Source: a virus
Length of the DNA: 31,623 nt
Virus genome (UHGV): UHGV-0098804
Reading direction: 5' to 3' (one strand)
The translations under genes were made by a program, and so were the position numbers. Below the pieces are notes generated by a model. It did not search any database, was not told where the DNA came from, and saw only the letters and a list, made by a program, of their open reading frames with translations. Positions 3,290 to 28,590 of the stretch are shown one piece after another. Numbering within the stretch: the stretch's first letter is position 1; each line of letters starts with the position of its first letter.

Positions 3290-4111
3290 TTAATAATGGT
3301 TAGCCATCCATTCAGATCTAATTGATGGGATAAACTCTCTATTGAGAAAGGGGACGTACAGTGTGGTTGTCACATCTGCACCCTCCTTAGCGTTTTTGCA
3401 ATGTTGCGGAGGCAGGATCAGTCGGCTTGAGCCTCTCTCAATAGACATTTTCAGGCCGTGGCGTAGGTCTTTTTGCATAAGCTGTATGCGAGCCACAAGC
3501 GGGGTAAATTCGGTTTCAAGCGCCATGCTTTCAATGATGTCAAAGCGTCGGTTAGCGGCCTGCGTGAAGTCCTCCGGATCGTCTTCAAGCGCCGTGCATA
3601 AAGCGAGTTCAGCAATTCGCATCCGTGCTACGCCAGCACTGTATTCGGGAGTTTTCATATCAGGAAGTGACGCTCGCATTCGTTCAAGGAGTTCCGCGCC
3701 TTTCCCGGTTAATGGTTTAAGTATCCAGTCAGTTGGTACTCCATTTACTGGTACGTTGGTTTTCACGTAAGGAGGTACAGTGAGTATTTCTACTGTTTGG
3801 GCCAGGTCGCTCAGGTTAATATCTGCATGATGCGTATTACCGCAGTGACTGCACTCATAGGAGTAGGTCATTACTGCATCGGGGCGCGAATTAACAAATA
3901 TCCACCAAAGAGCAGTTCTGCGGTCCTGAACTGTCCAGTTAGCACTGTCGTTAATTTCACCATCCTGCATAGAGTTAAGGTACTCTGTAGTCGTTGCCTC
4001 ATCTTCTGCCGGGTTCAGGTCAGAATATTTCAGCGCATCCTTCACGGTAGGGGCGTGGAACTGAATTTCTGTCTCAGGACGGGAAGGCAATGGGAATTTT
4101 GGAATGTTCAA
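3290..4111 (-). CDS. Hypothetical phage protein (273 aa), TTG start
   Basis: Track ORF; GGAGG lies 7 nt upstream of the TTG at 4111; sits between the structural block and the tape-measure-like gene. No family recognised. Confidence 0.55.
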   Translation of the reverse strand: MNIPKFPLPSRPETEIQFHAPTVKDALKYSDLNPAEDEATTTEYLNSMQDGEINDSANWTVQDRRTALWWIFVNSRPDAVMTYSYECSHCGNTHHADINLSDLAQTVEILTVPPYVKTNVPVNGVPTDWILKPLTGKGAELLERMRASLPDMKTPEYSAGVARMRIAELALCTALEDDPEDFTQAANRRFDIIESMALETEFTPLVARIQLMQKDLRHGLKMSIERGSSRLILPPQHCKNAKEGADVTTTLYVPFLNREFIPSIRSEWMANHY

Positions 4112-4219
4112 TTATTCCTCCGAAAAGCAGGTATCTGTTCATTTTCCAGAGGATAGGGAGTGTGTGATTTGCGATGGGGATTGAATGAAGATCTTTGCCG
4201 GTCGAGAAGCGATTATTGA

Positions 4220-4356: not shown

Positions 4357-4476
4357 TGGTGTAAGATTTGCCCTCAATTAAATACGATCGGTGTAAGATT
4401 TGCCCTCAGAAGGTGTAAGATTTGCCCTCAAAAGGTGTAGTAATTGCCCTCAAAGTGGTGTAAAAATTGCCCTCAC
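4357..4476 (+). repeat. Five direct iterons (19-20 bp, consensus GGTGTAAGATTTGCCCTCA) upstream of and overlapping the repA start region
   Basis: Copies at 4357-4376, 4389-4408, 4411-4430, 4433-4452, 4457-4476 with about 22-bp spacing. Ends in ATTGCCCTCA like F/RepFIB-type iterons as I recall them. Confidence 0.85.
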
Positions 4477-4499
4477 CATTTGAAGGATCACACAGGGTT

Positions 4500-5255
4500 A
4501 TGAACAGAGCGGAATTAACAGCAAAAGCCGTCAGCCTGATTGAGTCAGCGACACCTATTAGTCGTAGTCTGGCACAAGCCAATGAGATCACGGAGGCTGC
4601 TTATCACCTGACTCGCGACCAAAAGCGACTGTTGTTTATTGTGGTGGGAAGACTTCGCTATGCTTCTAAGGATGGCGTTCTTGGTTCAGGTGCCTGTGAG
4701 TTGACGGTCAACGAATATGCAGAGATGTATAATTTGCCCTCTGCTGAAGCCAGCAAGGATATTCGTAAGGCCATTTCAGGGCTTAGCGAGAAGAAAGTTA
4801 CGATATATAACCCTGATGAATCGACCGAATCAGAAGACAGTTATGAGTCTTATCCCTGGATGATTAAGGATGCCTATTCACCACGGCGCGGGACTTACAT
4901 TATTCATCTTAATCCATATCTCATGCCGTTTTTTACTCTGCTTGATAAGAGATTCACAAGGCTGAATTTTACCGAAGTATCTCGCCTTACAAATCCTTAT
5001 TCTATGCGGCTTTATGAGTCCTTATGCCAGTACAGGAAGGATGATGGAAGCGGCTTTGCCATACTTGGCGTCGAATGGATGCGGGAGCGTTATGGGTTAC
5101 CAAAAAGCTATCAGCGGTATGCCGAATTTAAGAGAAGTTTTTTAACGAAGGCTGTAGCAGAGATTGAAAAAAATACAAAAATGAAAATAGTCTTCTCAGA
5201 GGTGACGGAAGGCGGCAAAGTTACCAGGATAAAATTTACCTATCAGCAGTCTTAA
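4500..5255 (+). CDS. repA: Iteron-binding replication initiator RepA (Rep_3-like), about 251 aa
   Basis: Track ORF 4467..5255; preferred start is the ATG at 4500 (MNRAELTAK...) because the first 11 codons fall inside the last iteron. N-terminal LIESA...LTRDQKRLLFIVVGRL resembles the Rep_3 initiator motif (recalled, not searched). Flanked by iterons on both sides. Confidence 0.8.
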   Translation: MNRAELTAKAVSLIESATPISRSLAQANEITEAAYHLTRDQKRLLFIVVGRLRYASKDGVLGSGACELTVNEYAEMYNLPSAEASKDIRKAISGLSEKKVTIYNPDESTESEDSYESYPWMIKDAYSPRRGTYIIHLNPYLMPFFTLLDKRFTRLNFTEVSRLTNPYSMRLYESLCQYRKDDGSGFAILGVEWMRERYGLPKSYQRYAEFKRSFLTKAVAEIEKNTKMKIVFSEVTEGGKVTRIKFTYQQS

Positions 5256-5546
5256 GGGCAATTTTTACACCCCTCTCAAGGTGTAGAATTTGCCCTTAAC
5301 GATCGGCAATTGAGGGCAATTTTTACATCTTGATTGCATGTATCTCGTTATTAGCAAGTTGTGTTTTTATATAACGTATTGATATGTAAGGATTATGTAA
5401 AAATCGCCCTCAACCAATATCGTGCGTATCGTGCATTCTTATTGCGCTTTTTTATTATCATTCACTGTGTTAACTGATTGATATTATTGAAATATGTAAA
5501 GAATGCCTTCATTGCTGATGGATTGATGATGTAAAAAATGCCCTCA
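5255..5546. repeat. Second iteron cluster downstream of repA (mixed orientation, partly degenerate) with an AT-rich stretch: candidate incompatibility/copy-control locus
   Basis: Iteron-like copies at about 5255-5272 (inverted), 5279-5298 (direct), 5312-5330 (inverted), 5393-5413, 5491-5510, 5528-5546 (degenerate direct); AT-rich 5340-5480. Confidence 0.6.
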
Positions 5547-5636
5547 ACATTGCGCTACCTTCCCTACCCGCTATCGTTGAGGTCGTGGGTGCTGACGGGA
5601 AATGAGCAACCCTCCAGCACACATAATTAAAGCTAT

Positions 5637-6344
5637 TCAGAATTTGATCACTCCACTCACAGCCCCCTTTAACGCGCTTGTAGCCATGCCAGCGGCACCG
5701 TTGACCAAAGCAGAAACACCTGAGCCTGCGGATGTGTATTTCTGGAAAGTGATTGGATATGACAAGAACTCTGACACCTGGTCTCGTGAGCGGGTGATTT
5801 CCCCAAGTTGAGTGGGGAATACGCGCATTTCCTCTTCCAGTTCTTTTCCGCCGTCCTGAGTTACCCGGTAGAGACGGATTTTCATCAGATATTCAGGAGG
5901 AAGGTTTATTGTTCCGTCCGGATTTGTTACGCGAGAACGACGTTCTTTGAACCAGTCCATGATCTTGCCATCTTCGGTATCCCTCACGGTCATAGTGACC
6001 GGTCCGACGCTAACATAGGTTGGCTTGCTGAATTCTACGCTGCCGATCACCTTGCTTTCTGTCTCGATGTTTCCACTGCTGTACGTGATATCCTTCACGA
6101 ACATATCGAAGCCGTTCAGGCCATCCACTTCAACTGTCCATTGCCATCCCTGGGCATAACGGATACGCATAGCGGCAGCAACAATATTTTTCCCGTAGGC
6201 AATATCGCTACTGTAATTCCCGCTTACCCCGCCGCCTGATATGGCTTTATCAAGAATGTCGCTAATGAGGTTGCTGGTGAATGATTTCGTGTTAAATGAC
6301 AATGCGGTGGTCAACGTTCTACCAACGCTGCTGAAAATACTCAC
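5637..6344 (-). CDS. Hypothetical phage structural protein (235 aa), GTG start
   Basis: Track ORF; GGAGG 7 nt upstream of the GTG at 6344; closely packed in the minus-strand structural operon. Confidence 0.5.
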   Translation of the reverse strand: MSIFSSVGRTLTTALSFNTKSFTSNLISDILDKAISGGGVSGNYSSDIAYGKNIVAAAMRIRYAQGWQWTVEVDGLNGFDMFVKDITYSSGNIETESKVIGSVEFSKPTYVSVGPVTMTVRDTEDGKIMDWFKERRSRVTNPDGTINLPPEYLMKIRLYRVTQDGGKELEEEMRVFPTQLGEITRSRDQVSEFLSYPITFQKYTSAGSGVSALVNGAAGMATSALKGAVSGVIKF

Positions 6345-6359
6345 TCTGCGCCTCCAGCG

Positions 6360-6920
6360 TTAAAAAATGGTAGCCCCCGGAATGATTGCCCGGTTTGAAG
6401 ACATTTTTTCCTCAATCTCCTGCACGCGGGCATATAGCGTTGCTTCATCGGGTAGATCGGAGTAGTCAAATTTTCCGTCGATGGACGCTCGCCGCTGCCG
6501 GGCGACATTTCTGACATTGATAAGCGCCTCCAGATACTCCTCCAGCATCCCAATGATCGCTGGCGGCACTTGCCATTCATCCAGCTTTCTGTCGCGTAGA
6601 TTAACCAGATACAGCATCCGAAAAGGCCAGCGTTCTGCACCTGTTAGCTCTAATTCAATAAAGCCGGATAATTCATCCGAATAGACCAGCAGGCCATTGT
6701 TGTCGGTAACATGGACCAGAGAGAGATAATCTTCTGGCAATGGGATTGCCGTGCCACCCTCTTTTTCAAGTTTTAATGTTTTCACTACCCCTGCCCTGTC
6801 CTGATACGTTGTCAGTGCTTTGATCAGGAAGGCTTTCAGCGTTTCTTCTTCACGCACAAGCAGTGGATTAAATCGTGCTTTAACGCTTTCTAATAATTCG
6901 GTTGGTGTCATCGTACCCAC
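6360..6920 (-). CDS. Hypothetical phage structural/assembly protein (186 aa)
   Basis: Track ORF; co-oriented and closely spaced with neighbours; start GTG 6920 or ATG 6911. Confidence 0.45.
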   Translation of the reverse strand: MGTMTPTELLESVKARFNPLLVREEETLKAFLIKALTTYQDRAGVVKTLKLEKEGGTAIPLPEDYLSLVHVTDNNGLLVYSDELSGFIELELTGAERWPFRMLYLVNLRDRKLDEWQVPPAIIGMLEEYLEALINVRNVARQRRASIDGKFDYSDLPDEATLYARVQEIEEKMSSNRAIIPGATIF

Positions 6921-6964
6921 AACTCAAATGCAAGGAGTTCCCGCCACAAGGGCGGGAGCGGGGA

Positions 6965-15644: not shown

Positions 15645-15795
15645 TCTATCCAAGTGCCCAGCAGGCGATTAAAGATATTCTCAAAACAACCTCAATTATG
15701 ACTCTTATTTATCTCTAATTATGTGGATTTTCGATGCCTTCTCTTTTAAAATCATGATTTGATTCTCAAATGTGTCTCAGAAGTGGAGCAAGAAG

Positions 15796-16752
15796 ATGCG
15801 CATTTTTATCGATGATGGTTCAACCAATATCAAAATGCTGTGGGAGCACGACGGGGAAACTCGCACTCACATCAGCCCTAACAGCTTTAAGCGCGGATGG
15901 TCAGCAACATTTGGTGCTGGCAAGCCGTTTAACTATGTCATTGACGACGAAAAGTATTCGTATGATTTGATCTCGCCAGATGTTCTGCCGACAAATAACG
16001 TGGAATGGCAATACAGCCCGCTTAACGTTCTTGCTGTGCATCATGCTTTGTTGACCAGTGGTATTGAGCCGCAAGAAGTAGAAATTGTGGTTACACTGCC
16101 ACTGGCAGAGTTTTACGACGACGATGCGCAATACAATCTCGCTAATATTGAGCGCAAAAAAGCCAGCCTGATGCGCCCTGTCACGCTGAATAAAGGCAAT
16201 GTATTCACAATTAAGAAAGTTACGGTACGACCGGAGTCTATTCCGGCAGGAATTGGCCTGTGCGACAATCTGAACCCTGCCCATTCTGTTCTTATCGTCG
16301 ATTTGGGTGGAACTACCCTTGATGTTTCAATGGTCGCCGGGCAAATGACGGCAGTTTCCCGTGTTTTTGGCGATTCGAATCTTGGTGTATCACTGGTCAC
16401 CAGGGAAGTAAGGCAAGCACTTGCCAGAGCCAATACCGAAACGTCAAATTACAATGTCGATCAGCTTATTATTAACCGCCACGATGAAGAATATCTGAAC
16501 GACAATATCAATGATCCATCCGCTATTGGTGATGTGAAAAAGGCTATTAGTACAAGCATTGACCGCCTGCGTACTCGCGTTCTTGATGTAATTAGCGACT
16601 TTAAAGGGTATACGCATGTCATGGTGATCGGCGGTGGCGCGCCGCTGGTGGCTGATGCAATTCGCGAGCACGTTAACATTCGTGATGATCGTTTCTTTGT
16701 GGCAGATGATCCGCAACTTGCTCTTGTTCATGGTCTGAAGGCTATCGGTTAA
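15796..16752 (+). CDS. parM: Actin-like plasmid segregation ATPase ParM/StbA
   Basis: Track ORF 15772..16752; ATG at 15796 with GGAG upstream preferred. MRIFIDDGSTNIKMLW...HISPNSFKRGW closely resembles the R1 ParM N-terminus as I recall it. Confidence 0.85.
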   Translation: MRIFIDDGSTNIKMLWEHDGETRTHISPNSFKRGWSATFGAGKPFNYVIDDEKYSYDLISPDVLPTNNVEWQYSPLNVLAVHHALLTSGIEPQEVEIVVTLPLAEFYDDDAQYNLANIERKKASLMRPVTLNKGNVFTIKKVTVRPESIPAGIGLCDNLNPAHSVLIVDLGGTTLDVSMVAGQMTAVSRVFGDSNLGVSLVTREVRQALARANTETSNYNVDQLIINRHDEEYLNDNINDPSAIGDVKKAISTSIDRLRTRVLDVISDFKGYTHVMVIGGGAPLVADAIREHVNIRDDRFFVADDPQLALVHGLKAIG

Positions 16753-17149: not shown

Positions 17150-17340
17150 CCGCTTTAACACCAATTTGGTACCAATTTTACACCATATATGAGCCGCTTA
17201 TGTACTGGTGCATAAATGGTGCTGGTTTGGTGCTTTCCAGGTATAAACGTGTACCGGTATATTGGGGATTTGCTGCTATACTGGCAATATTGAGGATTGT
17301 GCCGTTATTGCACCGAAACGGTACCAAAGAGGTACCTTTT
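17150..17340. repeat. Repeat-rich intergenic region (multiple GGTACC / ccaattt / ggtgct motifs): candidate centromere and promoter for the ParA-type system
   Basis: Visible repeated short motifs (ccaatttggtaccaatttt; ggtgctggtttggtgct; acggtaccaaagaggtacc) upstream of the ParA-like gene. Confidence 0.3.
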
Positions 17341-17380
17341 CAGTGTTAAAGTGATGCTAAAACAACACCGAGGAAAGGAC

Positions 17381-18022
17381 ATGATTATCCTGGTAGCAAG
17401 TCAAAAGGGAGGCTGTGGCAAGTCAACCACCAGCGTCAATATTTGTGCCGAGCTGGCCCGAAAAAACAAAGATGTCGTCTTGATTGATGCTGATAAGCAG
17501 GGAACGGCAGCTCGATGGGCGTCAGACCGTAATTCGTCCGAAGTGACACCAGTTATTCATTGCGTCCAGAAGTTTGGAAATATTCGAGAAACTCTGCTCG
17601 ATCTTAACAATCGATATGAATACGTGGTTGTTGATACCGCAGGTCGTGATAGTAAAGAGATGCGCACAGGTATAACGGCGGCGGATATTCTATTGGTTCC
17701 ATTCAGGCCGTCTCAGCCAGATTTGGACACGCTGGCACACTTTGTTGAGGTGTTTGAAGAGGCTTTGGATCTGATGCCTAATCCCAATATTAAGGCGTGC
17801 GCAGTCTTAACTATGGCCCCGGCAAATCCGGTTGTGAATGAAGCAAATGAGGCCAAAGAGTATCTGGCAGAATATCCGCAACTGAAATTGCTGAAAACCA
17901 TTATTCGCGATCGCAAGGTTTACCGCGACTGCATGGCTGAAGGAAAGGGTGTTGTTGAGATGGATAACGGTAAGGCGAAAGGTGAAATTCAGATGTTAGT
18001 TAAGGAGTTGCTAAGTGATTAA
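17381..18022 (+). CDS. parA: ParA/ParF-family partition ATPase (Walker-type, about 213 aa)
   Basis: Track ORF 17297..18022; ATG at 17381 follows AGGAAAGGAC. Deviant Walker A KGGCGKST near the N-terminus. Confidence 0.8.
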   Translation: MIILVASQKGGCGKSTTSVNICAELARKNKDVVLIDADKQGTAARWASDRNSSEVTPVIHCVQKFGNIRETLLDLNNRYEYVVVDTAGRDSKEMRTGITAADILLVPFRPSQPDLDTLAHFVEVFEEALDLMPNPNIKACAVLTMAPANPVVNEANEAKEYLAEYPQLKLLKTIIRDRKVYRDCMAEGKGVVEMDNGKAKGEIQMLVKELLSD

Positions 18023-22604: not shown

Positions 22605-23372
22605 TCACCCCATAGATATCGAGGTTTCGGTAATAATACGTTTTGCGTCCAACTCCCATGCTGTGATCACGTCTGCAATCACACTTATCGGCGCTTGTGT
22701 GGCATAAATACGCTCTTCTCCAATTGGTGCTGAAACATCCGTAAAGCCGACTTCTTTGGCATCCTGTATCGAGCAAATCAGCGGGACCGGAACACGAACA
22801 AGGTGAGTGGTTGCTTCAAATTGTGTACCTGTCATCAGGCGAAGCCGTGCGCCCAGCGAATTACACATCAGACTCATGGTCGCTTTATCAGTTGCCATTA
22901 ACGTAACGTCATACGTCAGAATGGCCTGGGTGTATTCCAGTTCTGCTAAAGGCATTCCGGTATCCGGTTCGCAAAAACTGGCTACTTTTTTGCGGTCAAT
23001 CTGCTGATCATCGTTGATATAATTGATATCCATAGTGCGTGAGATATTGACCAGGGGGAGAGCATCCCGGTTAATGTTCTGGTTTTCAGGTTTTCTCCCT
23101 TGCCCGGCATTTGCGCGACGAACTGCTTTAAGAAACTCGATCGCATTGTCGAAACGGGCCACATAGACACGCTCTGCTGGTGGACGATTCAAGAATGACG
23201 CAAAGCGTTTTTCTTCCGGCGCGGGGGCCACCAGTAAGATATCAGAAAAGATATTGCTGATTAGCGTAGCAAACGCGTTATCCACGTTTTCAAAGCCCGT
23301 GGTCTGGAATTTCCCTGTGCGTGAGGTTTGCCATTCACCTGTTCGCGCCAGGAGGGTTTTATTTGAAGTCAT
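22605..23372 (-). CDS. Hypothetical tail/baseplate protein (255 aa)
   Basis: Track ORF in operon context; overlaps the upstream ORF by 4 bp. Confidence 0.45.
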   Translation of the reverse strand: MTSNKTLLARTGEWQTSRTGKFQTTGFENVDNAFATLISNIFSDILLVAPAPEEKRFASFLNRPPAERVYVARFDNAIEFLKAVRRANAGQGRKPENQNINRDALPLVNISRTMDINYINDDQQIDRKKVASFCEPDTGMPLAELEYTQAILTYDVTLMATDKATMSLMCNSLGARLRLMTGTQFEATTHLVRVPVPLICSIQDAKEVGFTDVSAPIGEERIYATQAPISVIADVITAWELDAKRIITETSISMG

Positions 23373-24160
23373 TCGATCACTCCGTTTTGAGTCGTATCAA
23401 AATTCCTGGCAGGTATGCAGTAGTAAAGCGAACCAACATGCTGTGTGCCGTAGCTAAAAATACGGTGCACGTACCACCAGCGGCGGGCTACGCCGTTTAC
23501 CATCTCTTCATTCCATTCAAGAATTGATCCGACGGGGACGTTATTTGCTGCAATACGCAGAATCAGAACATCATCGGTTAAGCCATCCTGCTCACCGTCT
23601 GCGTCAATCGCATGGAAAGAGTCACGCCCGTCCGGGTTATCCAGCACATAAACGATTTCAGGTTCCTGGTAAGTCAGTTCGCGCTGGTTGTTATCCAGTT
23701 CAGTGAATGACTCTTCTCCTGTTTCGTCGCTGACTACCCCATATGTGCCAACATCTGGTCGATATAAGAGAGCCTGAAACGCGTCTGGGCTGGATTCAAT
23801 AATCAGCATCCAGTCTGCGCGGATTTGGTCGTTAAAGGCTTTATGCCCGTTATAGCGTGCTTTTAGCTGTGGAGTTGGTTCTCTGCCAGCCAGGGAAGGT
23901 GGAAGTATGGCTATATCTGATTCGGCAGCATCCGGAGTAAGGCCAGCGTTGCTATCAGCAAAATTATCATGGCTATCAGCTTTGGCGGCGGGTTGCTCTT
24001 CCAGAATGCTGAATGAATCCGAACCGGTATTGCCATGTTCCGGCGCACCTCCTGCATTCGCTTCAATCGGCGCTGGCGTTTCTCTCTGCGTGCTGTCATG
24101 TTCTGACTCCTTACTTGCCAGGTTTGCATCGTCAGCAAACCATTCGTCAAAACGGCCCAT
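23369..24160 (-). CDS. Hypothetical protein with acidic N-terminal half (about 264 aa)
   Basis: Track ORF 23369..24262; GAGG lies 6 nt before the second ATG at 24160 (MGRFDEW...), preferred over the track start. Confidence 0.45.
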   Translation of the reverse strand: MGRFDEWFADDANLASKESEHDSTQRETPAPIEANAGGAPEHGNTGSDSFSILEEQPAAKADSHDNFADSNAGLTPDAAESDIAILPPSLAGREPTPQLKARYNGHKAFNDQIRADWMLIIESSPDAFQALLYRPDVGTYGVVSDETGEESFTELDNNQRELTYQEPEIVYVLDNPDGRDSFHAIDADGEQDGLTDDVLILRIAANNVPVGSILEWNEEMVNGVARRWWYVHRIFSYGTQHVGSLYYCIPARNFDTTQNGVIE

Positions 24161-24322
24161 AAGCATCCTCAAAGGTCGATCTGTCAGGTATCGAAAGGAA
24201 GATTTTCGGGAGATTGTGATTTTGGATGAAGGAGGGGGAATCCATAAAGTGCACTTGCGCACAGTGCAACAGTGCGCTATAGTTATGGCATTCGGTAATC
24301 ATCACGGAGGATCAAATGACTA

Positions 24323-24625
24323 ATGACCAAAAAAATTAACATAAAGGATTTCAGGGATGCGTGGCTTGATGATTTTTTTGAATTTTCAACACCACATAGA
24401 AAGATACCTCCTGATATTCATATGACATTGTCACGGAAGTTGGACATTATCAATGCCGCAACTACCTGTAAGGATTTAAGATCACCACCAGGTAATCGGT
24501 ATGAGGAACTGTCAGGGAAGCTAAATGGCTATTCATCAGTAAGGGTGAATAAGCAATATAGGTTAATTTTTAAGTGGGTTAACGGAAAGGCCGAGGACTT
24601 GTATCTCGACCCTCACAAATACTAA
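24323..24625 (+). CDS. higB: HigB-like toxin (RelE/ParE superfamily, plasmid-killer type)
   Basis: C-terminal LRSPPGNRYEELSGKLNGYSSVRVNKQYRLIFKW...DLYLDPHKY matches the recalled HigB toxin pattern (PPGNRLE...SIRIN.QWRICF...DYH); toxin-first gene order; GGAGG at 24305. Confidence 0.75.
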   Translation: MTKKINIKDFRDAWLDDFFEFSTPHRKIPPDIHMTLSRKLDIINAATTCKDLRSPPGNRYEELSGKLNGYSSVRVNKQYRLIFKWVNGKAEDLYLDPHKY

Positions 24626-24695
24626 AACAGATACCCGGTTACGGACCGGGTTCTGACCAGAGTCCACTTAATACGCACGCTAGTAAGGGCAAAAA

Positions 24696-25034
24696 ATGAA
24701 ACAGGCAACCAGAAAACCGACGACCGTAGGTGATATCCTTCTGTACGAATACCTGGAGCCGTTAGAGCTGAAGATCAACGAGTTAGCAGAAATACTTCAT
24801 GTTCATCGTAACACCGTAAGTGCTCTTGTTAATAATAATCGTAAGCTAACGATGGATATGGCATATCGCCTGGCAAAAGCATTCGATACTTCTGTAGATT
24901 TTTGGATTAATCTTCAGACCGCAGTAGATCTGTGGGAAGTCGAAAATGATATGCGCGTTCAGGAAGAGTTAAGTCGTATCAATACTGCTGAAAAATTTAT
25001 TTCTCAGCGGAACCTGAATAAAAAAGCAGCCTGA
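24696..25034 (+). CDS. higA: HigA-like antitoxin (XRE-type HTH)
   Basis: HTH region LAEILHVHRNTVSALVNNNRKLTMDMAYRLAKAFDTSVDFWINLQTAVDLW matches the HigA antidote pattern; immediately downstream of higB. Confidence 0.8.
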   Translation: MKQATRKPTTVGDILLYEYLEPLELKINELAEILHVHRNTVSALVNNNRKLTMDMAYRLAKAFDTSVDFWINLQTAVDLWEVENDMRVQEELSRINTAEKFISQRNLNKKAA

Positions 25035-25055
25035 TATAGTAAAATACATACAAAA

Positions 25056-25084
25056 AGCCCACTTAGCAAGTGGGCTTTCCTTTG
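25056..25084 (+). terminator. Rho-independent terminator after higA
   Basis: agcccactt agc aagtgggct followed by ttcctttg. Confidence 0.55.
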
Positions 25085-25090
25085 TAATTA

Positions 25091-25291
25091 ATGAACATTA
25101 AACCTATCCGTACAGAACAAGATTATGAGGCCGCACTGCGTGCGGTCGAACCGATGTTCGATAACGAACCGGAAATGAATACTCCGGAAGGTGATTTCTT
25201 TGAGGTTATGAGTCTTCTCATTGAGGAGTACGAGAAGAAACATTACCCAATTCAGCCACCATCACCTGTTGAATCTTTTAACTATCCATAA
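25091..25291 (+). CDS. Orphan antitoxin-like N-terminal domain ORF (66 aa, no HTH): possible remnant of a third TA module
   Basis: IRTEQDYEAALRAVEPMFDNEPEMNTPEGDFFEVMSLLIEEYEKKHYPI resembles the N-terminal non-HTH domain of E. coli K-12-type HigA antitoxins (recalled). Starts right after a terminator with no SD; the usual C-terminal HTH is absent and an AT-rich gene follows. Confidence 0.4.
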   Translation: MNIKPIRTEQDYEAALRAVEPMFDNEPEMNTPEGDFFEVMSLLIEEYEKKHYPIQPPSPVESFNYP

Positions 25292-25312
25292 TAAAAGTAA
25301 TCAGGATAAGCT

Positions 25313-26041
25313 ATGATGTCAGAAAAAGTTACAGATAATCCGTCTATAAATGAAACAGAACTAAAATCATTTTCTGAAATAATAAAAGATAAAATATTTA
25401 ACAAGGTTTTTGCATATGTTGTCATTTCTTTTCTAATTTTTAACTGGAAGGATATTTTAATTATATTAAAGTCAAAGGACGACATCCTATATACATTATC
25501 TATTGTTTTTGTTGGTGGTAATGTCCCGTTCTTTGATAATTGGATTGTATCCCCGTGGGTTTATCACGTTGTAATCCCATTTGTTTATGGAGTATTTGCA
25601 TCTGTGTTAGCTCCTATTCTCACACTGAAGATATCTAAGCTAACAAGTAAATTATACACTGAAATAAGATATTTGGATGAAGTTGCTGATTATGATAAAA
25701 GAATAGAATTGCAAAGAAAGAAAACAAAGTTAAATCAAGCAACCAATGACGCTAAATATTCAAAACAAATCTTAGATGAAAATGAAAATAAACTTAATGA
25801 CCTAGCTAAGAAACAGCGAGAAATTTGTGGCGCGATAAAACTATTGCATACTGATGTTGGCAGTATTATTGAGCTATATAAAAATAAGGGGGTTAGCATT
25901 GAATCTCCGCAAGATTTATGTGATTTTATAGTCGCTATAAAAAGCACATCATTCTATAATGATGACAAGCATTTTAATAAATTGGTGTCTGATATTTCCA
26001 GTTTGTTTGATAATACTGGAATTGATCTTTCAAAAAAATGA
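25313..26041 (+). CDS. AT-rich accessory gene: multi-pass membrane N-terminus plus C-terminal coiled coil (242 aa), function unknown
   Basis: Track ORF with AGGA SD. Composition is visibly far more AT-rich than the flanks. Hydrophobic segments (FAYVVISFLIFNW; LSIVFVGGNVPFF; VVIPFVYGVFASVLAPILTL) then a charged heptad-like region. Confidence 0.6.
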   Translation: MMSEKVTDNPSINETELKSFSEIIKDKIFNKVFAYVVISFLIFNWKDILIILKSKDDILYTLSIVFVGGNVPFFDNWIVSPWVYHVVIPFVYGVFASVLAPILTLKISKLTSKLYTEIRYLDEVADYDKRIELQRKKTKLNQATNDAKYSKQILDENENKLNDLAKKQREICGAIKLLHTDVGSIIELYKNKGVSIESPQDLCDFIVAIKSTSFYNDDKHFNKLVSDISSLFDNTGIDLSKK

Positions 26042-26074
26042 AAGCCCAGCATAAACTACTAGGCTATGTGTGGT

Positions 26075-27268
26075 TTATGCTTTTTTCACGTACTCTATAA
26101 ACATCTTCTCAGCCTGTTCTTGTGGCGTTCCAGCCATGACAAGCGCATCAATGAACGCCTGCTTCTTCAGTGCGAACTGATCGGCAAGGCGTTGCTGAAG
26201 TTCCTTATTTTTCTGTTTCTCACGTTGCAAGGCCGCTTCTTTTGCAGCCGCCCGTTTTTTCTGTGCGTCTGACAACTTTCTGGCCCTGGTCAATTGGTCA
26301 CGTAGCTTGTCGATCTTGCCGTTGTCCTTTGCCAGTTTTGTACTTAAAGCTGCCTGGCGCTTCTGATAGAGCCTCCATTCGCGCTTGGCAGCGTCAACGT
26401 TTGTTTTACTGTTGCGATTGCGATTAAACTCCCTCTCGTCTTCTTTTGAGAAGTGTTTGGTTGTACGGCGGCGATCGTCACCAAATGCAATTTGCGTTGC
26501 GGCCTTTTGTAACGCACGAGCAATACTCATTTGCCAACTAGCGGACTGTAACCGCGTCATTGAGTGGATCACGTGTTTACAGGCGACGCCTTGTAGCTTA
26601 GGGTTACGAACTTTTGGATAGGCGTATTCTTTTGGCGGTGCCAGGGCAAAGTTACCCGCAGTAGCGATGTAACGATACCAGTATTGATGACGACCACAGT
26701 CACAATCGAAAGACACCCGCCCGGCGCACAGTGATTTAGTGATTTTCAGAGCTGATTTATCGTCTTCTGCGATGTCATCGACCATCTGATCCCATTCTTC
26801 AAAGCGTATCCGGACGATATGGTGCTGGTGGACGGATATATCCGATGCTTCTACGCGGATATTAATCACGTTGTGGCGAAGAGATACAGGTGTAGCTCTT
26901 TTGATACCAGATCCGTCATCCACGGCGTTATTTGCACGCTTAATATCGATTGCCTGGCTGGATGCCACCAGCTGGGCGTATGTGATGCCAGCCGTCTTGC
27001 TGTCATATTTTTCGCGTGTTTTACTCCGTAGCTTTTCGAAACCTTTCAGGTCGTCTCGCGTGAAGAACGTGCCGCCTTTTTTCTTCCCTAACTTGAGAAT
27101 ATCTTCGGCGGATTTGTTCCTCAGTCTACCTGGCGTCAGCGTCCGGTGAGCTTGTCGGCGCTTACGGGTTTGTTCTTTCCTGATAAGGTCGAATAAACGC
27201 GTGAAGTCCTTAGAGGACAGGCCGTCAGTGATATAGCGCCCGTCCTGGTTTTTCAGGAAATCAGGCAT
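26075..27268 (-). CDS. SWIM-zinc-finger-like protein with Lys/Arg/Glu-rich coiled-coil C-terminus (397 aa), function unknown
   Basis: Track ORF; GGAG SD; FDCDCGRHQYWY...CKHVIH fits a CxC...CxH SWIM-type finger; start overlaps the upstream ORF stop by 8 bp (ATGCCTGA). Confidence 0.6.
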   Translation of the reverse strand: MPDFLKNQDGRYITDGLSSKDFTRLFDLIRKEQTRKRRQAHRTLTPGRLRNKSAEDILKLGKKKGGTFFTRDDLKGFEKLRSKTREKYDSKTAGITYAQLVASSQAIDIKRANNAVDDGSGIKRATPVSLRHNVINIRVEASDISVHQHHIVRIRFEEWDQMVDDIAEDDKSALKITKSLCAGRVSFDCDCGRHQYWYRYIATAGNFALAPPKEYAYPKVRNPKLQGVACKHVIHSMTRLQSASWQMSIARALQKAATQIAFGDDRRRTTKHFSKEDEREFNRNRNSKTNVDAAKREWRLYQKRQAALSTKLAKDNGKIDKLRDQLTRARKLSDAQKKRAAAKEAALQREKQKNKELQQRLADQFALKKQAFIDALVMAGTPQEQAEKMFIEYVKKA

Positions 27269-27682: not shown

Positions 27683-27976
27683 TTATGCGTGGAAAAATAA
27701 TGGACGGATGTTTGGGCGAGTGGTTTGCGAAGCAACCCAAAGCTCATACTGGGATTGCATACCGGTCCACATTTCGGCACTGGTTCCAAGAGCGGACTCC
27801 AGACGAAGTGCCATATCAGCAGATATACCTGCTTTTTCATTCAGAATTCGGGAAAGCGCCGTGCGAGTAATGCCTAATGCCGCAGCGGCGTCTGTGACTG
27901 ACATGTCTCCCAAATATTCACGAAGAACCGCGCCTGGATGCGCGGGATTATGCATACGACTCATAGTGTTCCTCAA
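27683..27976 (-). CDS. higA: HigA-like antitoxin (second copy, XRE HTH)
   Basis: [18 protein letters not shown]...[38 protein letters not shown] is the canonical HigA pattern; 4-bp overlap with the upstream toxin gene. Confidence 0.8.
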
Positions 27977-28254
27977 TGATAATCCTGATAGTCAACTAGA
28001 ATTGCGTCTTCTCCTTCAAATCGGAAGGTAAGTCGCCAGTTACCGTTTACCGATATTGCCCAGTGACCTTTAAGGTCCGCCCCCTTTAGAGGGTGCAATT
28101 CCCATCCAGGCGCAGACATATCGTCCGGGCGTTTAGCTGTATTAAGCGCAGTCAATTGAATGCGTAGCTTAACCGCATGTTTGGCCTGAATGCCTGCGGT
28201 TGAACCTGTCTTGAAAAAGCGTTCAAGCCCTTTATGGCGAAATGACTTAATCAA
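27973..28254 (-). CDS. higB: HigB/RelE-like toxin (second copy); probable TTG start giving [14 protein letters not shown]...
   Basis: [13 protein letters not shown]...[43 protein letters not shown] matches the HigB/RelE toxin pattern. Track ATG at 28317 adds 21 atypical residues; a TTG at 28254 with GGA upstream restores the conserved N-terminus. Start uncertain. Confidence 0.7.
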
Positions 28255-28590
28255 AATAATTCCATTCGTGCGTGCAACCTGTGTATATACGCTACACGCA
28301 GAAAGAGTAAAATGCAAGCACTATCCGTATAGACAGAGTTTTTTCGCCACCCTGGAATTTATTGACTGTCAACAAGTGACTTTCATTAATCTTAAGGCGT
28401 GGACCAGCTCGATAGTGAGCTGGGTGTTATTTACCGATCGAATGGATTCGAAAAGATGAATATTTTTAATAAGCTGATTGATTTATTGAATAAATTCATT
28501 AGTGCTTCTTTAACTCAGCAGGTATCCACGTCAGTGTTTTTGTTACTCTTCTACCTGGTATTGAGGGAGTTAACAAAGCTACTAATGTGA

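What the first reader, a model, noticed from the sequence alone, without database searches (positions are those of the whole stretch)
25313..26041. AT-rich single gene encoding a membrane-anchored coiled-coil protein: candidate abortive-infection or exclusion factor
This ORF is markedly more AT-rich than the flanking DNA, suggesting separate acquisition. It encodes about three hydrophobic helices followed by a charged coiled-coil, an architecture common among single-gene membrane effectors of phage defence or superinfection exclusion. It lies right after the truncated antitoxin-like ORF.
Basis: partly seen in the sequence, partly recalled or inferred. Interest (0 to 1): 0.7.

Follow-up and report, generated by a model that had tools for sequence, protein, structure and literature searches.

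The report
Hypervariable membrane coiled-coil moron in phage-plasmid
This AT-rich gene is a real, self-contained add-on gene of a D6-like E. coli phage-plasmid; it encodes an uncharacterised membrane-anchored coiled-coil protein that exists as many ancient variants at one fixed spot, which fits a phage-exclusion role that has never been tested.

Summary
ORF 25313-26041 (242 aa) has 29.4% GC against 46.7% for the window, the lowest value anywhere in it. It encodes two membrane helices, one roughly 110-residue helix and a small helical end domain. It follows a HigA-type antitoxin gene truncated from 119 to 66 codons.

The window is a D6-like (P1-related) phage-plasmid. The gene lies on the opposite strand, between homologues of P1 tail genes 7 and 25.

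- **No known relatives.** Pfam, NCBIfam, PADLOC, PDB sequences and two fold libraries gave nothing beyond coiled-coil noise. The family is rare: 41 representatives among 1.84 billion proteins.
- **Many old alleles.** At least nine allele classes (33-79% identical) occupy this one locus. Synonymous divergence is 0.5-2.7 in the gene and 0-0.17 in flanking tail genes; dN/dS is about 0.2-0.3.
- **A separable cassette.** Some D6-like contigs have an empty site. Near-identical HigBA pairs occur elsewhere without this gene. Distant relatives are single-gene insertions in other prophages.

My best reading is an autonomous prophage moron for an inner-membrane phage-exclusion or abortive-infection protein, independent of HigBA. 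The function is inferred, not shown. Interest is moderate.

The parts
25313..26041 (+). Target gene: 242-aa membrane-anchored coiled-coil protein (PHROG 8191, function unknown). This is the commonest of at least 9 allele classes at this locus.
   Evidence: ORF; phrog_8191 E=2.6e-122; D6 orf73 is a 58%-identical allele of the same length; allele classes; dN/dS 0.2-0.3
25346..25396 (+). aa 12-28: N-terminal amphipathic helix, inferred to be cytoplasmic. Its end overlaps the conserved KDK-x-F-N-K motif.
   Evidence: AF2 helix 12-28; hydrophobic moment 0.99; family conservation
25403..25471 (+). aa 31-53: first hydrophobic helix, kinked at invariant N44 and near-invariant W45. This is the most conserved part of the family.
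   Evidence: Hydropathy; AF2 helices 31-43 and 45-53; N44 invariant
25472..25555 (+). aa 54-81: short loop with a small helix, variable in length between alleles. Inferred to be periplasmic.
   Evidence: Family mean net charge -0.8 in the loop against +0.4 and +1.6 in the N- and C-flanks; insertions and deletions in the alignment
25556..25630 (+). aa 82-106: second transmembrane helix, with invariant P89 and near-invariant P101. It runs straight on into the stalk helix.
   Evidence: Hydropathy maximum 2.13; AF2 helix 81-192; invariant columns
25631..25888 (+). aa 107-192: long charged helical stalk (coiled coil). The most variable region between alleles. Inferred to be cytoplasmic.
   Evidence: Block-mean pLDDT 90 or more across aa 91-180; 3.5-3.6 periodicity; 22-39% identity to the window allele across allele classes; the flank after TM2 is rich in K and R
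25889..26038 (+). aa 193-242: small C-terminal helical domain, moderately conserved among the D6-type alleles.
   Evidence: AF2 helices 199-209 and 219-234; conservation 0.4-0.5
25303..25306 (+). AGGA ribosome-binding site upstream of the ATG at 25313.
   Evidence: Read directly from the sequence
25091..25291 (+). Truncated HigA-type antitoxin remnant (66 aa). It is the N-terminal domain only and lacks the helix-turn-helix domain.
   Evidence: PADLOC PD-Lambda-2_B positions 1-65 of 402, E=2.5e-16; 91% identical to residues 1-65 of D6 orf72, which is 119 aa
25268..25312 (+). Left junction of the cassette in this allele class. Near-identity to D6 stops here, and about 200 bp present in D6 (the HTH half of orf72 plus a hairpin) are absent.
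   Evidence: Pairwise and multiple DNA alignments
26043..26065 (.). Hairpin between the convergent target gene and tail gene 25. It scores as a terminator on the - strand and marks the right end of the cassette.
   Evidence: Terminator scan; similarity to D6 resumes at the stop codon
25054..25085 (+). Terminator-like hairpin after the first higA, immediately upstream of the antitoxin remnant.
   Evidence: Terminator scan
24323..25034 (+). Intact HigB (PF05015) and HigA (HTH_3) toxin-antitoxin pair at the head of the same accessory island.
   Evidence: Pfam E=4.4e-35 and 7e-11; 100% identical to D6 orf70 and orf71
23369..24262 (-). Left conserved flank: homologue of P1 tail gene 7.
   Evidence: phrog_1906; D6 annotation
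26075..27268 (-). Right conserved flank: homologue of P1 tail gene 25.
   Evidence: phrog_1722; D6 annotation

Best explanation
The gene is an autonomous single-gene accessory cassette (a 'moron') of a D6-like phage-plasmid.

**The protein.** It is a two-pass inner-membrane protein. By inference, both ends face the cytoplasm and only a short loop is exposed to the periplasm. The second membrane helix continues into a long cytoplasmic coiled-coil stalk, which ends in a small helical head.

**Most likely role.** I think it is made in cells carrying the phage-plasmid and acts at the inner membrane against other incoming phages. It could hinder genome entry or establishment, as P22 SieA does. Alternatively, the variable stalk and head could sense a phage component and the conserved membrane module could then compromise the membrane, which would be abortive infection.

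**What the diversity suggests.** The many ancient alleles kept at one locus suggest that the variable part sets specificity.

**Shown and inferred.**
- Shown here: the gene is real and under purifying selection, it is a separable cassette, it is independent of HigBA, it is highly polymorphic, and it has no known homologues.
- Inferred: topology, expression in the lysogen, and the exclusion function itself.
For: **A real gene.**
- dN/dS is 0.17-0.52 within and between allele classes.
- The reading frame is kept across alleles that are 33-79% identical.

**A separable cassette.**
- D6-like contigs L063 and L064 have higB-higA followed directly by gene 25, with a single hairpin between them.
- Occupied sites carry the gene between that hairpin and a second hairpin ending in the same ACCGCC.

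**Independent of HigBA.**
- HigB/HigA pairs 90-94% identical to these occur in more than 20 other viral contigs without the gene.
- Family members occur without HigBA in several other settings: opposite-strand single genes between ninB and the replication genes of a lambdoid phage; between terminase and portal in two further temperate phages, one classified as Uetakevirus; same-strand genes between lysis and terminase genes; genes at prophage ends; and one gene in an Enterobacter chromosome.

**Polymorphism at one locus.**
- Synonymous divergence (dS) between alleles is 0.5-2.7. It is 0.00-0.06 for genes 24 and 26, 0.03-0.17 for gene 25 and 0.1-0.3 for orf72 (leaving out the more divergent contig L037 and the mis-framed L029 orf72).
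- P22 sieA similarly exists as three types only about 25% identical at one locus inside the virion gene cluster (PMC10883804).

**Composition.** All 17 members examined are 2-19 GC points below the rest of their fetched locus.

**Architecture.** AF2 pLDDT 81.8; charge distribution across the family fits a topology with both ends inside.

**Context.** A survey found a complete recognised defence system in only one D6-like phage-plasmid from an E. coli isolate, so unrecognised ones are plausible (10.1101/2025.09.12.675607).
Against: - There is no experimental phenotype and no homology to any known exclusion or defence protein.
- No convincing own promoter was found upstream. The only sigma-70-like match on the + strand near it lies inside the ORF, and a terminator-like hairpin sits at 25054-25085, so expression in the lysogen is unproven.
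- Pairwise dN/dS gives no sign of positive selection.
- Topology rests only on the positive-inside rule. The first hydrophobic helix carries a polar N-W-K-D in its middle and may not span the membrane.
- At 29% GC, the gene could be silenced by H-NS.
- Within D6-like elements the gene always sits next to a HigA-type gene or its remnant.
Confidence: 0.5

Rival explanations
1. It is the third (effector) component of a three-gene HigB-HigA-X system comparable to PD-lambda-2. HigBA would regulate or arm the membrane protein, and in this window the system is a decayed remnant.
For: - In several D6-like contigs the island reads higB (PF09907), higA (119 aa), then the family member.
- That HigB matches PD-Lambda-2_A over its full length (E=3.4e-42). 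D6 orf72 matches positions 1-119 of the 402-position PD-Lambda-2_B model (E=4e-43).
- PD-lambda-2 has three genes, and the third is needed for defence (PMC9519451).
- A more divergent phage-plasmid (L035) has a different PF09907 HigB and a HigA, followed by a family member.
- The hairpin between higA and the gene has only a weak T-run in occupied sites, so co-transcription is possible.
Against: - The same HigBA pair occurs at this locus without the gene (L063, L064) and in more than 20 other contigs without it.
- Family members occur without any HigBA in at least six other contexts.
- D6 itself lacks the PF09907 higB.
- The commonest allele class (51 of 75 E. coli genomes with a detectable match) also lacks the HTH of higA, yet remains under purifying selection.
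- The protein does not match any PADLOC model, including those of PD-lambda-2.
- The HigA here lacks the peptidase domain of PD-lambda-2 B.
Confidence: 0.15
2. It serves the phage-plasmid's own biology or the host's physiology rather than defence. Possible roles include lysis timing, DNA injection or assembly at the membrane, plasmid tethering, or some other lysogenic-conversion trait.
For: - It is embedded in the tail and baseplate gene cluster.
- No defence homology was found.
Against: - It is on the opposite strand to the late genes and is absent from some otherwise intact-looking D6-like contigs.
- There is no homologue between genes 7 and 25 in the S. dysenteriae plasmid.
- Relatives sit at unrelated positions in unrelated phage types.
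- There is no embedded or adjacent lipoprotein ORF that could act as an o-spanin partner.
- The charge pattern places the stalk in the cytoplasm, not the periplasm.
- Extreme allelic diversity is unusual for a morphogenetic or lysis protein whose partner genes are nearly invariant.
Confidence: 0.25
3. It is a membrane toxin neutralised by the upstream HigA-type protein or its 66-aa N-terminal remnant, that is, a two-gene addiction module.
For: - The order antitoxin-like gene then membrane protein is kept in all D6-like arrangements.
- The remnant keeps the N-terminal domain.
- By my recollection of the E. coli HigBA structure, not checked here, that N-terminal domain is the toxin-binding part of HigA.
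Against: - The cognate partner of this HigA is clearly the PF09907 HigB found with it elsewhere.
- Family members stand alone in many loci with no antitoxin-like neighbour.
Confidence: 0.07
4. It is a chance ORF in AT-rich junk DNA.
For: Low GC, no annotated function and no database hits.
Against: - dN/dS is 0.2-0.3.
- The length of 242-259 aa is kept across alleles with saturated synonymous divergence.
- There are 41 family representatives with invariant N44 and P89.
- The predicted structure is confident.
Confidence: 0.02

Closest known systems
P22 SieA (inner-membrane superinfection exclusion protein)
   Same: - A prophage gene on the opposite strand inside the virion gene cluster.
- A small inner-membrane protein.
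- It exists as several deeply divergent types (about 25% identity) at one fixed locus and is present in only some relatives (PMC10883804).
   Different: - No sequence relationship: hhalign probability 1.9%.
- As I recall and as the translation suggests, SieA is mostly membrane-embedded, whereas this protein has a stalk of about 85 residues and a head.
- The function of SieA is proven; the function of this protein is not.
Lambda/P22 SieB (PF14163)
   Same: An opposite-strand gene embedded in a phage operon. From the translation, and as I recall, it has hydrophobic helices near the N-terminus followed by a soluble C-terminal part.
   Different: No homology: hhalign probability 0.2%, and no Pfam hit. 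SieB has no long coiled coil.
SNIPE (DUF4041 plus GIY-YIG membrane-bound nuclease)
   Same: An N-terminal membrane anchor followed by a coiled-coil region, acting at the inner membrane during genome injection. Its non-catalytic parts are variable and are thought to set phage specificity (PMC13190303).
   Different: No nuclease domain is present here. PADLOC hits of one family member to PD-Lambda-1 cover only the coiled coil, and the window protein has no hit at all.
PD-lambda-2 (HigB-like A, HigA-peptidase B, and C)
   Same: The neighbouring genes in related elements are close relatives of components A and B. The ancestral-looking island has three genes in the same order.
   Different: - The target is not homologous to any PADLOC model.
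- B lacks its peptidase domain here.
- In the window A is absent and B is cut to 66 aa.
- The HigBA pair and the target occur apart.
Phage morons in the classical sense (extra gene inserted between conserved phage genes)
   Same: Discrete insertion with both empty and occupied sites, deviant base composition, its own downstream hairpin, and opposite orientation to the surrounding late genes.
   Different: An own promoter was not demonstrated.

Membership tests
Classical phage moron | Present in some and absent from other closely related phages at the same junction | tested here: met
   Empty site in L063 and L064; occupied in most others; a deleted site with a higB remnant in S. dysenteriae
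Classical phage moron | Base composition different from the surrounding phage genome | tested here: met
   29.4% against 46.7% GC, z=-4.9; all 17 family members examined are below the rest of their locus
Classical phage moron | Own promoter and terminator, with expression from the prophage | tested here: inconclusive
   A hairpin lies downstream. No convincing sigma-70 promoter was found upstream. Expression is not testable with these tools.
P22 SieA family | Sequence or profile homology to SieA | tested here: not met
   hhalign probability 1.9%
P22 SieA family | [quoted passage not shown] | not testable with these tools
   Two hydrophobic helices are predicted; there is no functional assay
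SieB (PF14163) | Match to the SieB profile or sequence | tested here: not met
   No Pfam hit; hhalign probability 0.2% against lambda SieB
PD-lambda-2 | HigB-like component A adjacent | tested here: not met
   The window's HigB is PF05015 and has no PADLOC hit. The A-like PF09907 HigB is present only in related contigs.
PD-lambda-2 | Component B: HigA-like HTH fused to a peptidase | tested here: not met
   Only model positions 1-65 of 402 are matched in the window. D6 orf72 covers positions 1-119, so there is no peptidase domain.
PD-lambda-2 | Component C homologous to the third gene | tested here: not met
   The target has no PADLOC hit at E<=1
SNIPE / DUF4041 nucleases | C-terminal GIY-YIG nuclease domain and DUF4041 | tested here: not met
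   No Pfam or PADLOC hit for the window protein. The C-terminus is a helical region of about 50 aa.
i-spanin (Rz-like) | N-terminal membrane anchor with a periplasmic coiled coil, an embedded or adjacent o-spanin lipoprotein gene, and a position in the lysis cassette | tested here: not met
   No overlapping or adjacent + strand ORF of 40 aa or more. The gene lies in the tail cluster, not the lysis cassette. The charge pattern puts the stalk in the cytoplasm.
Type II toxin-antitoxin toxin | Obligate pairing with an adjacent antitoxin gene | tested here: not met
   Family members stand alone in many loci. The adjacent HigA pairs with HigB PF09907 elsewhere.
PHROG 8191 | Full-length match to the PHROG profile | tested here: met
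   E=2.6e-122, positions 1-242 of 242; the family has no known function

The most novel reading that the evidence does not exclude
The gene represents a previously undescribed, Enterobacterales-restricted family of single-gene anti-phage proteins. In this reading a conserved two-helix membrane module is the effector, and a hypervariable cytoplasmic coiled-coil stalk and head is the sensor. At least nine ancient alleles would be kept by balancing selection at one locus of D6-like phage-plasmids, acting as a specificity determinant in competition between phages and phage-plasmids.
Probability: 0.3. Interest if true: 0.75.

Novelty: new variant of a known kind. Interest (0 to 1): 0.55.

Why it matters
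A recent survey found a complete recognised defence system in only one D6-like phage-plasmid from an E. coli isolate (10.1101/2025.09.12.675607). These elements are nevertheless widespread at low frequency in E. coli, Shigella and Salmonella.

This work identifies one locus in them that combines several features:
- many ancient alleles in a nearly invariant frame;
- a clean cassette structure with empty and occupied sites;
- relatives inserted as single genes in several other temperate phage types.

That makes it a well-defined, easily cloned 729-bp candidate for a new exclusion or defence family. The natural allele series could be used directly to map specificity.

If the gene turns out not to be defensive, the polymorphism still needs explaining.

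Tried and rejected
**Homology searches that found nothing useful.**
- Pfam, NCBIfam, PADLOC and PDB sequences, with a single sequence and with a profile.
- The afdb50 fold library was not available.
- Profile comparison with lambda SieB and P22 SieA was negative.
- A last protein search with an alignment of the N-terminal domain only, to look for fusions to known domains, returned only short hypothetical proteins from Enterobacterales.

**Structure.** The first AF2 run, with 3 sequences, was unusable (pLDDT 42).

**Other negative checks.**
- Rfam scan of the whole window: no hits.
- Repeats around the gene: nothing meaningful.
- Test for an invertible segment around the distant homologues that sit next to a serine recombinase: no convincing inverted repeats.
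- The metagenome scan added no new contexts.

**Failed or flawed calls.**
- The search for related loci with the wide alignment failed for lack of conserved stretches.
- The D6 genome paper (Gilcrease and Casjens 2018) is not held.
- An accession-based literature search found nothing relevant.
- In one search my coordinates for gene 7 (many pairs) and for L029 orf72 were out of frame. Those columns should be ignored.
- One search was an empty script.

**Rejected readings.** Spanin or holin, spurious ORF, and obligate HigBA partner. The reasons are given under the rival explanations.

Full report
**1. The observation**

An AGGA ribosome-binding site lies just upstream.

Its GC content is 29.4%, and 23.5% at third codon positions. 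The mean of all 729-bp windows is 46.7% (sd 3.5). This is the lowest such window in the 31.6 kb (z = -4.9). The tail genes on either side have 48-50% GC.

Hydropathy gives two strong hydrophobic segments (aa 31-53 and 82-106) and a weaker short one (aa 57-67).

The upstream ORF 25091-25291 (66 aa) is the N-terminal part of a HigA-type antitoxin. That protein is 119 aa long and intact in phage D6 (orf72). Near-identity to D6 stops at about 25268, and the helix-turn-helix half is missing. All parts of the observation are therefore confirmed.

**2. Where the window comes from**

The region is 100% identical to roughly 90-kb non-mobilizable E. coli plasmids. It is collinear with Escherichia phage D6, a P1-related phage-plasmid.

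The - strand carries homologues of P1 tail and baseplate genes 5, 6, 24, 7, 25 and 26. The window also holds a Rep3 initiator, a ParM and a ParA-like ATPase.

Between genes 7 and 25 lies a + strand island, in this order:
- HigB (PF05015) at 24323-24625;
- HigA (HTH_3) at 24696-25034;
- a terminator-like hairpin;
- the 66-aa HigA remnant;
- the target gene;
- a hairpin shared with the convergent gene 25.

**3. The protein**

*No informative matches.*
- Pfam, NCBIfam, PADLOC and PDB sequence searches gave nothing for the window protein.
- It belongs to PHROG 8191, which has no known function.
- A profile search of 1.84 billion representative proteins found only 41 relatives.
- Those relatives hit only coiled-coil models, below threshold.

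*Coiled-coil signal.* The stalk shows 3.5-3.6-residue periodicity. Heptad packing is good at both ends and weak in the very polar middle.

*Topology.* Across the family the flank before the first hydrophobic helix and the flank after the second are rich in K and R. The loop between them is net negative. This points to both ends in the cytoplasm and a short periplasmic loop. It is an inference from the positive-inside rule only. The first helix carries a conserved polar N-W-[KQRE]-[DEN] in its middle and may not be a plain membrane span.

*Conservation.* Conservation is highest in the membrane module: aa 21-70 are 64-76% identical to the window allele across allele classes, and N44 and P89 are invariant. 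It is lowest in the stalk, at 22-39%.

**4. The locus across related elements**

In D6-like contigs and plasmids the same position holds at least nine allele classes of this gene. They are 33-79% identical in protein and 242-259 aa long.

*Divergence.* Synonymous divergence (dS) by gene:

| Gene | dS between loci |
|---|---|
| Target gene, between allele classes | 0.5-2.7 |
| Genes 24 and 26 | 0.00-0.06 |
| Gene 25 | 0.03-0.17 |
| orf72 | 0.1-0.3 |

These figures leave out pairs with the more divergent contig L037 and the mis-framed L029 orf72; the gene 7 columns are out of frame and should be ignored.

dN/dS is about 0.2-0.3 throughout. The alleles are therefore old and functional, and they sit in a nearly invariant frame. 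Diversity decays with distance from the gene. That pattern is expected for long-term maintenance of alleles with recombination. It is not what recent rapid divergence would give.

*Upstream arrangements.* Four are seen:
- higB (PF09907), higA (119 aa), then the gene;
- higB (PF05015), higA (HTH_3), terminator, higA (119 aa), then the gene, as in D6;
- the window type, where the 119-aa higA is cut to 66 aa;
- a deleted site in a Shigella dysenteriae plasmid that keeps only a higB remnant.

*Prevalence.* The window type is the commonest. Of 5,426 complete E. coli genomes, 75 give a DNA match, all on plasmids, and 51 of those match at 95% identity or more.

**5. Is it part of the HigBA system?**

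The PF09907 HigB and the 119-aa HigA are close relatives of components A and B of the PD-lambda-2 defence system. The E-values are 3.4e-42 and 4e-43, although B lacks its peptidase domain here. PD-lambda-2 has a third gene that is needed for defence (PMC9519451). This made a three-gene system a serious possibility.

Four observations argue against an obligate link:
- Two D6-like contigs (L063, L064) have higB-higA followed directly by gene 25. A single hairpin (GGCGGTC...GACCGCC, then TTTGTTGT) lies between them. In occupied sites the gene sits between that hairpin and a second one ending in the same ACCGCC-TTTGTTGT. It is therefore a discrete cassette.
- HigB/HigA pairs 90-94% identical to these occur in more than 20 other viral contigs without the gene.
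- More distant family members occur with no HigBA nearby. They are found in these settings:
  - an opposite-strand gene between ninB and the replication genes of a lambdoid Klebsiella phage;
  - opposite-strand genes between terminase and portal in two further temperate phages, one classified as Uetakevirus;
  - same-strand genes between the lysis genes and terminase of lambdoid prophages;
  - genes at prophage ends beside a small serine recombinase;
  - one apparently solitary gene in an Enterobacter chromosome.
- D6 and the window class lack the PF09907 higB, and the window class also lacks the HTH domain. The gene nevertheless stays under purifying selection.

Every family member examined is 2-19 GC points below the rest of its fetched locus.

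**6. Most likely function**

The data fit an autonomous moron that encodes an inner-membrane protein with a cytoplasmic stalk and head. Prophage genes of this type and placement are typically superinfection-exclusion or abortive-infection factors.

The best-documented parallel is P22 sieA. It is an opposite-strand gene inside the virion gene cluster. [quoted passage not shown] It exists as three types only about 25% identical at one locus, and it is present in only some relatives (PMC10883804).

SNIPE shows that a membrane anchor plus coiled coil can position an effector at the injection site, with the variable non-catalytic parts thought to set specificity (PMC13190303).

The target is homologous to neither of these, nor to lambda SieB, and it has no enzymatic domain.

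I therefore commit to phage exclusion at the inner membrane, with confidence 0.5. I cannot separate an entry block from an abortive mechanism that damages the membrane. If the topology inference is right, the variable part is cytoplasmic, which leans slightly towards sensing a phage component after entry.

Three weaknesses remain:
- no promoter was found;
- expression in the lysogen is unknown;
- the gene could be silenced by H-NS.

**7. Rivals**

| Rival reading | Confidence | Main evidence |
|---|---|---|
| Third component of a PD-lambda-2-like system | 0.15 | Section 5 |
| Role in the element's own life cycle or in host physiology | 0.25 | Argued against by strand, presence/absence, scattered positions in unrelated phages, lack of an o-spanin partner, and extreme diversity beside invariant partner genes |
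| Membrane toxin with the HigA remnant as antitoxin | 0.07 | Family members stand alone elsewhere |
| Chance ORF | 0.02 | Refuted by the selection analysis |

**8. Novelty and verdict**

The kind of element is familiar: a prophage-encoded single-gene membrane moron. The family, however, is undescribed, has no detectable relatives among known exclusion or defence proteins, and shows an unusual multi-allele polymorphism.

A survey found a complete recognised defence system in only one D6-like phage-plasmid from an E. coli isolate, so this is a reasonable candidate for an unrecognised one.

Interest is moderate (0.55). The case is well defined and easy to test, but the function is inferred only.

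Noticed in passing
window 27683-28317 (- strand): A second HigB (PF05015) and HigA (HTH_3) pair lies between tail gene 26 and the mat homologue. D6 has two small hypothetical ORFs there instead. The window therefore carries two HigBA pairs plus a third HigA remnant around tail genes 25 and 26.
   Followed up: partly
window 25091-25291: The 66-aa HigA remnant keeps the whole N-terminal domain and has a clean double stop codon. It is carried by the commonest allele class. It might still bind a PF09907-type HigB from another element, or it may simply be a scar.
   Followed up: partly
L012 1293-1562 (Shigella dysenteriae plasmid NZ_CP026808): The 270-bp spacer between genes 7 and 25 still encodes the first 21 or so residues of the PF09907 HigB (MKIMSVKTLRDFWAKNPDAEQ). 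This 'empty' site is therefore a deletion derivative, not an ancestral state.
   Followed up: yes
L063 and L061, around 3360-3400 and 4160-4200: The cassette is bounded by two hairpins that share the 3' arm ACCGCC followed by TTTGTTGT. The empty site has a single hairpin. This suggests insertion or excision by recombination at the terminator hairpin.
   Followed up: partly
L034 5832-6311 (also L112): One allele class has an extra 159-aa ORF between the target homologue and gene 25. It has no Pfam or PADLOC hit. The island appears to accumulate further unknown genes.
   Followed up: partly
L003, L005-L010, L053-L054 (gene at about 5001-6963 of each locus): Distant family members repeatedly lie tail-to-tail, 3-13 bp from a small serine recombinase gene of about 190 aa (shorter fragments in L003). 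These sit at prophage ends, several next to yciI, or next to an M32 peptidase gene. No inverted repeats typical of an invertible segment were found in L005.
   Followed up: partly
P0045, P0058, P0062 (317-321 aa family members): The longer members carry an extra C-terminal region of about 70 aa after the coiled coil, with the motif ENPGWV-GWIIY...FHSIY. It has no Pfam match and could be a separate sensor or effector domain.
   Followed up: no
window 26075-27268 and the flanking genes in related loci: Synonymous divergence between loci is higher in gene 25 (0.03-0.17) and orf72 (0.1-0.3), next to the polymorphic gene, than in genes 24 and 26 (0-0.06). This looks like linked diversity around a locus kept polymorphic.
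   Followed up: partly
window 4467-5255, 15772-16752, 17297-18022: Plasmid maintenance genes, confirming the phage-plasmid nature of the window: a Rep3-type initiator, a ParM actin-like segregation protein and a ParA-like ATPase.
   Followed up: partly
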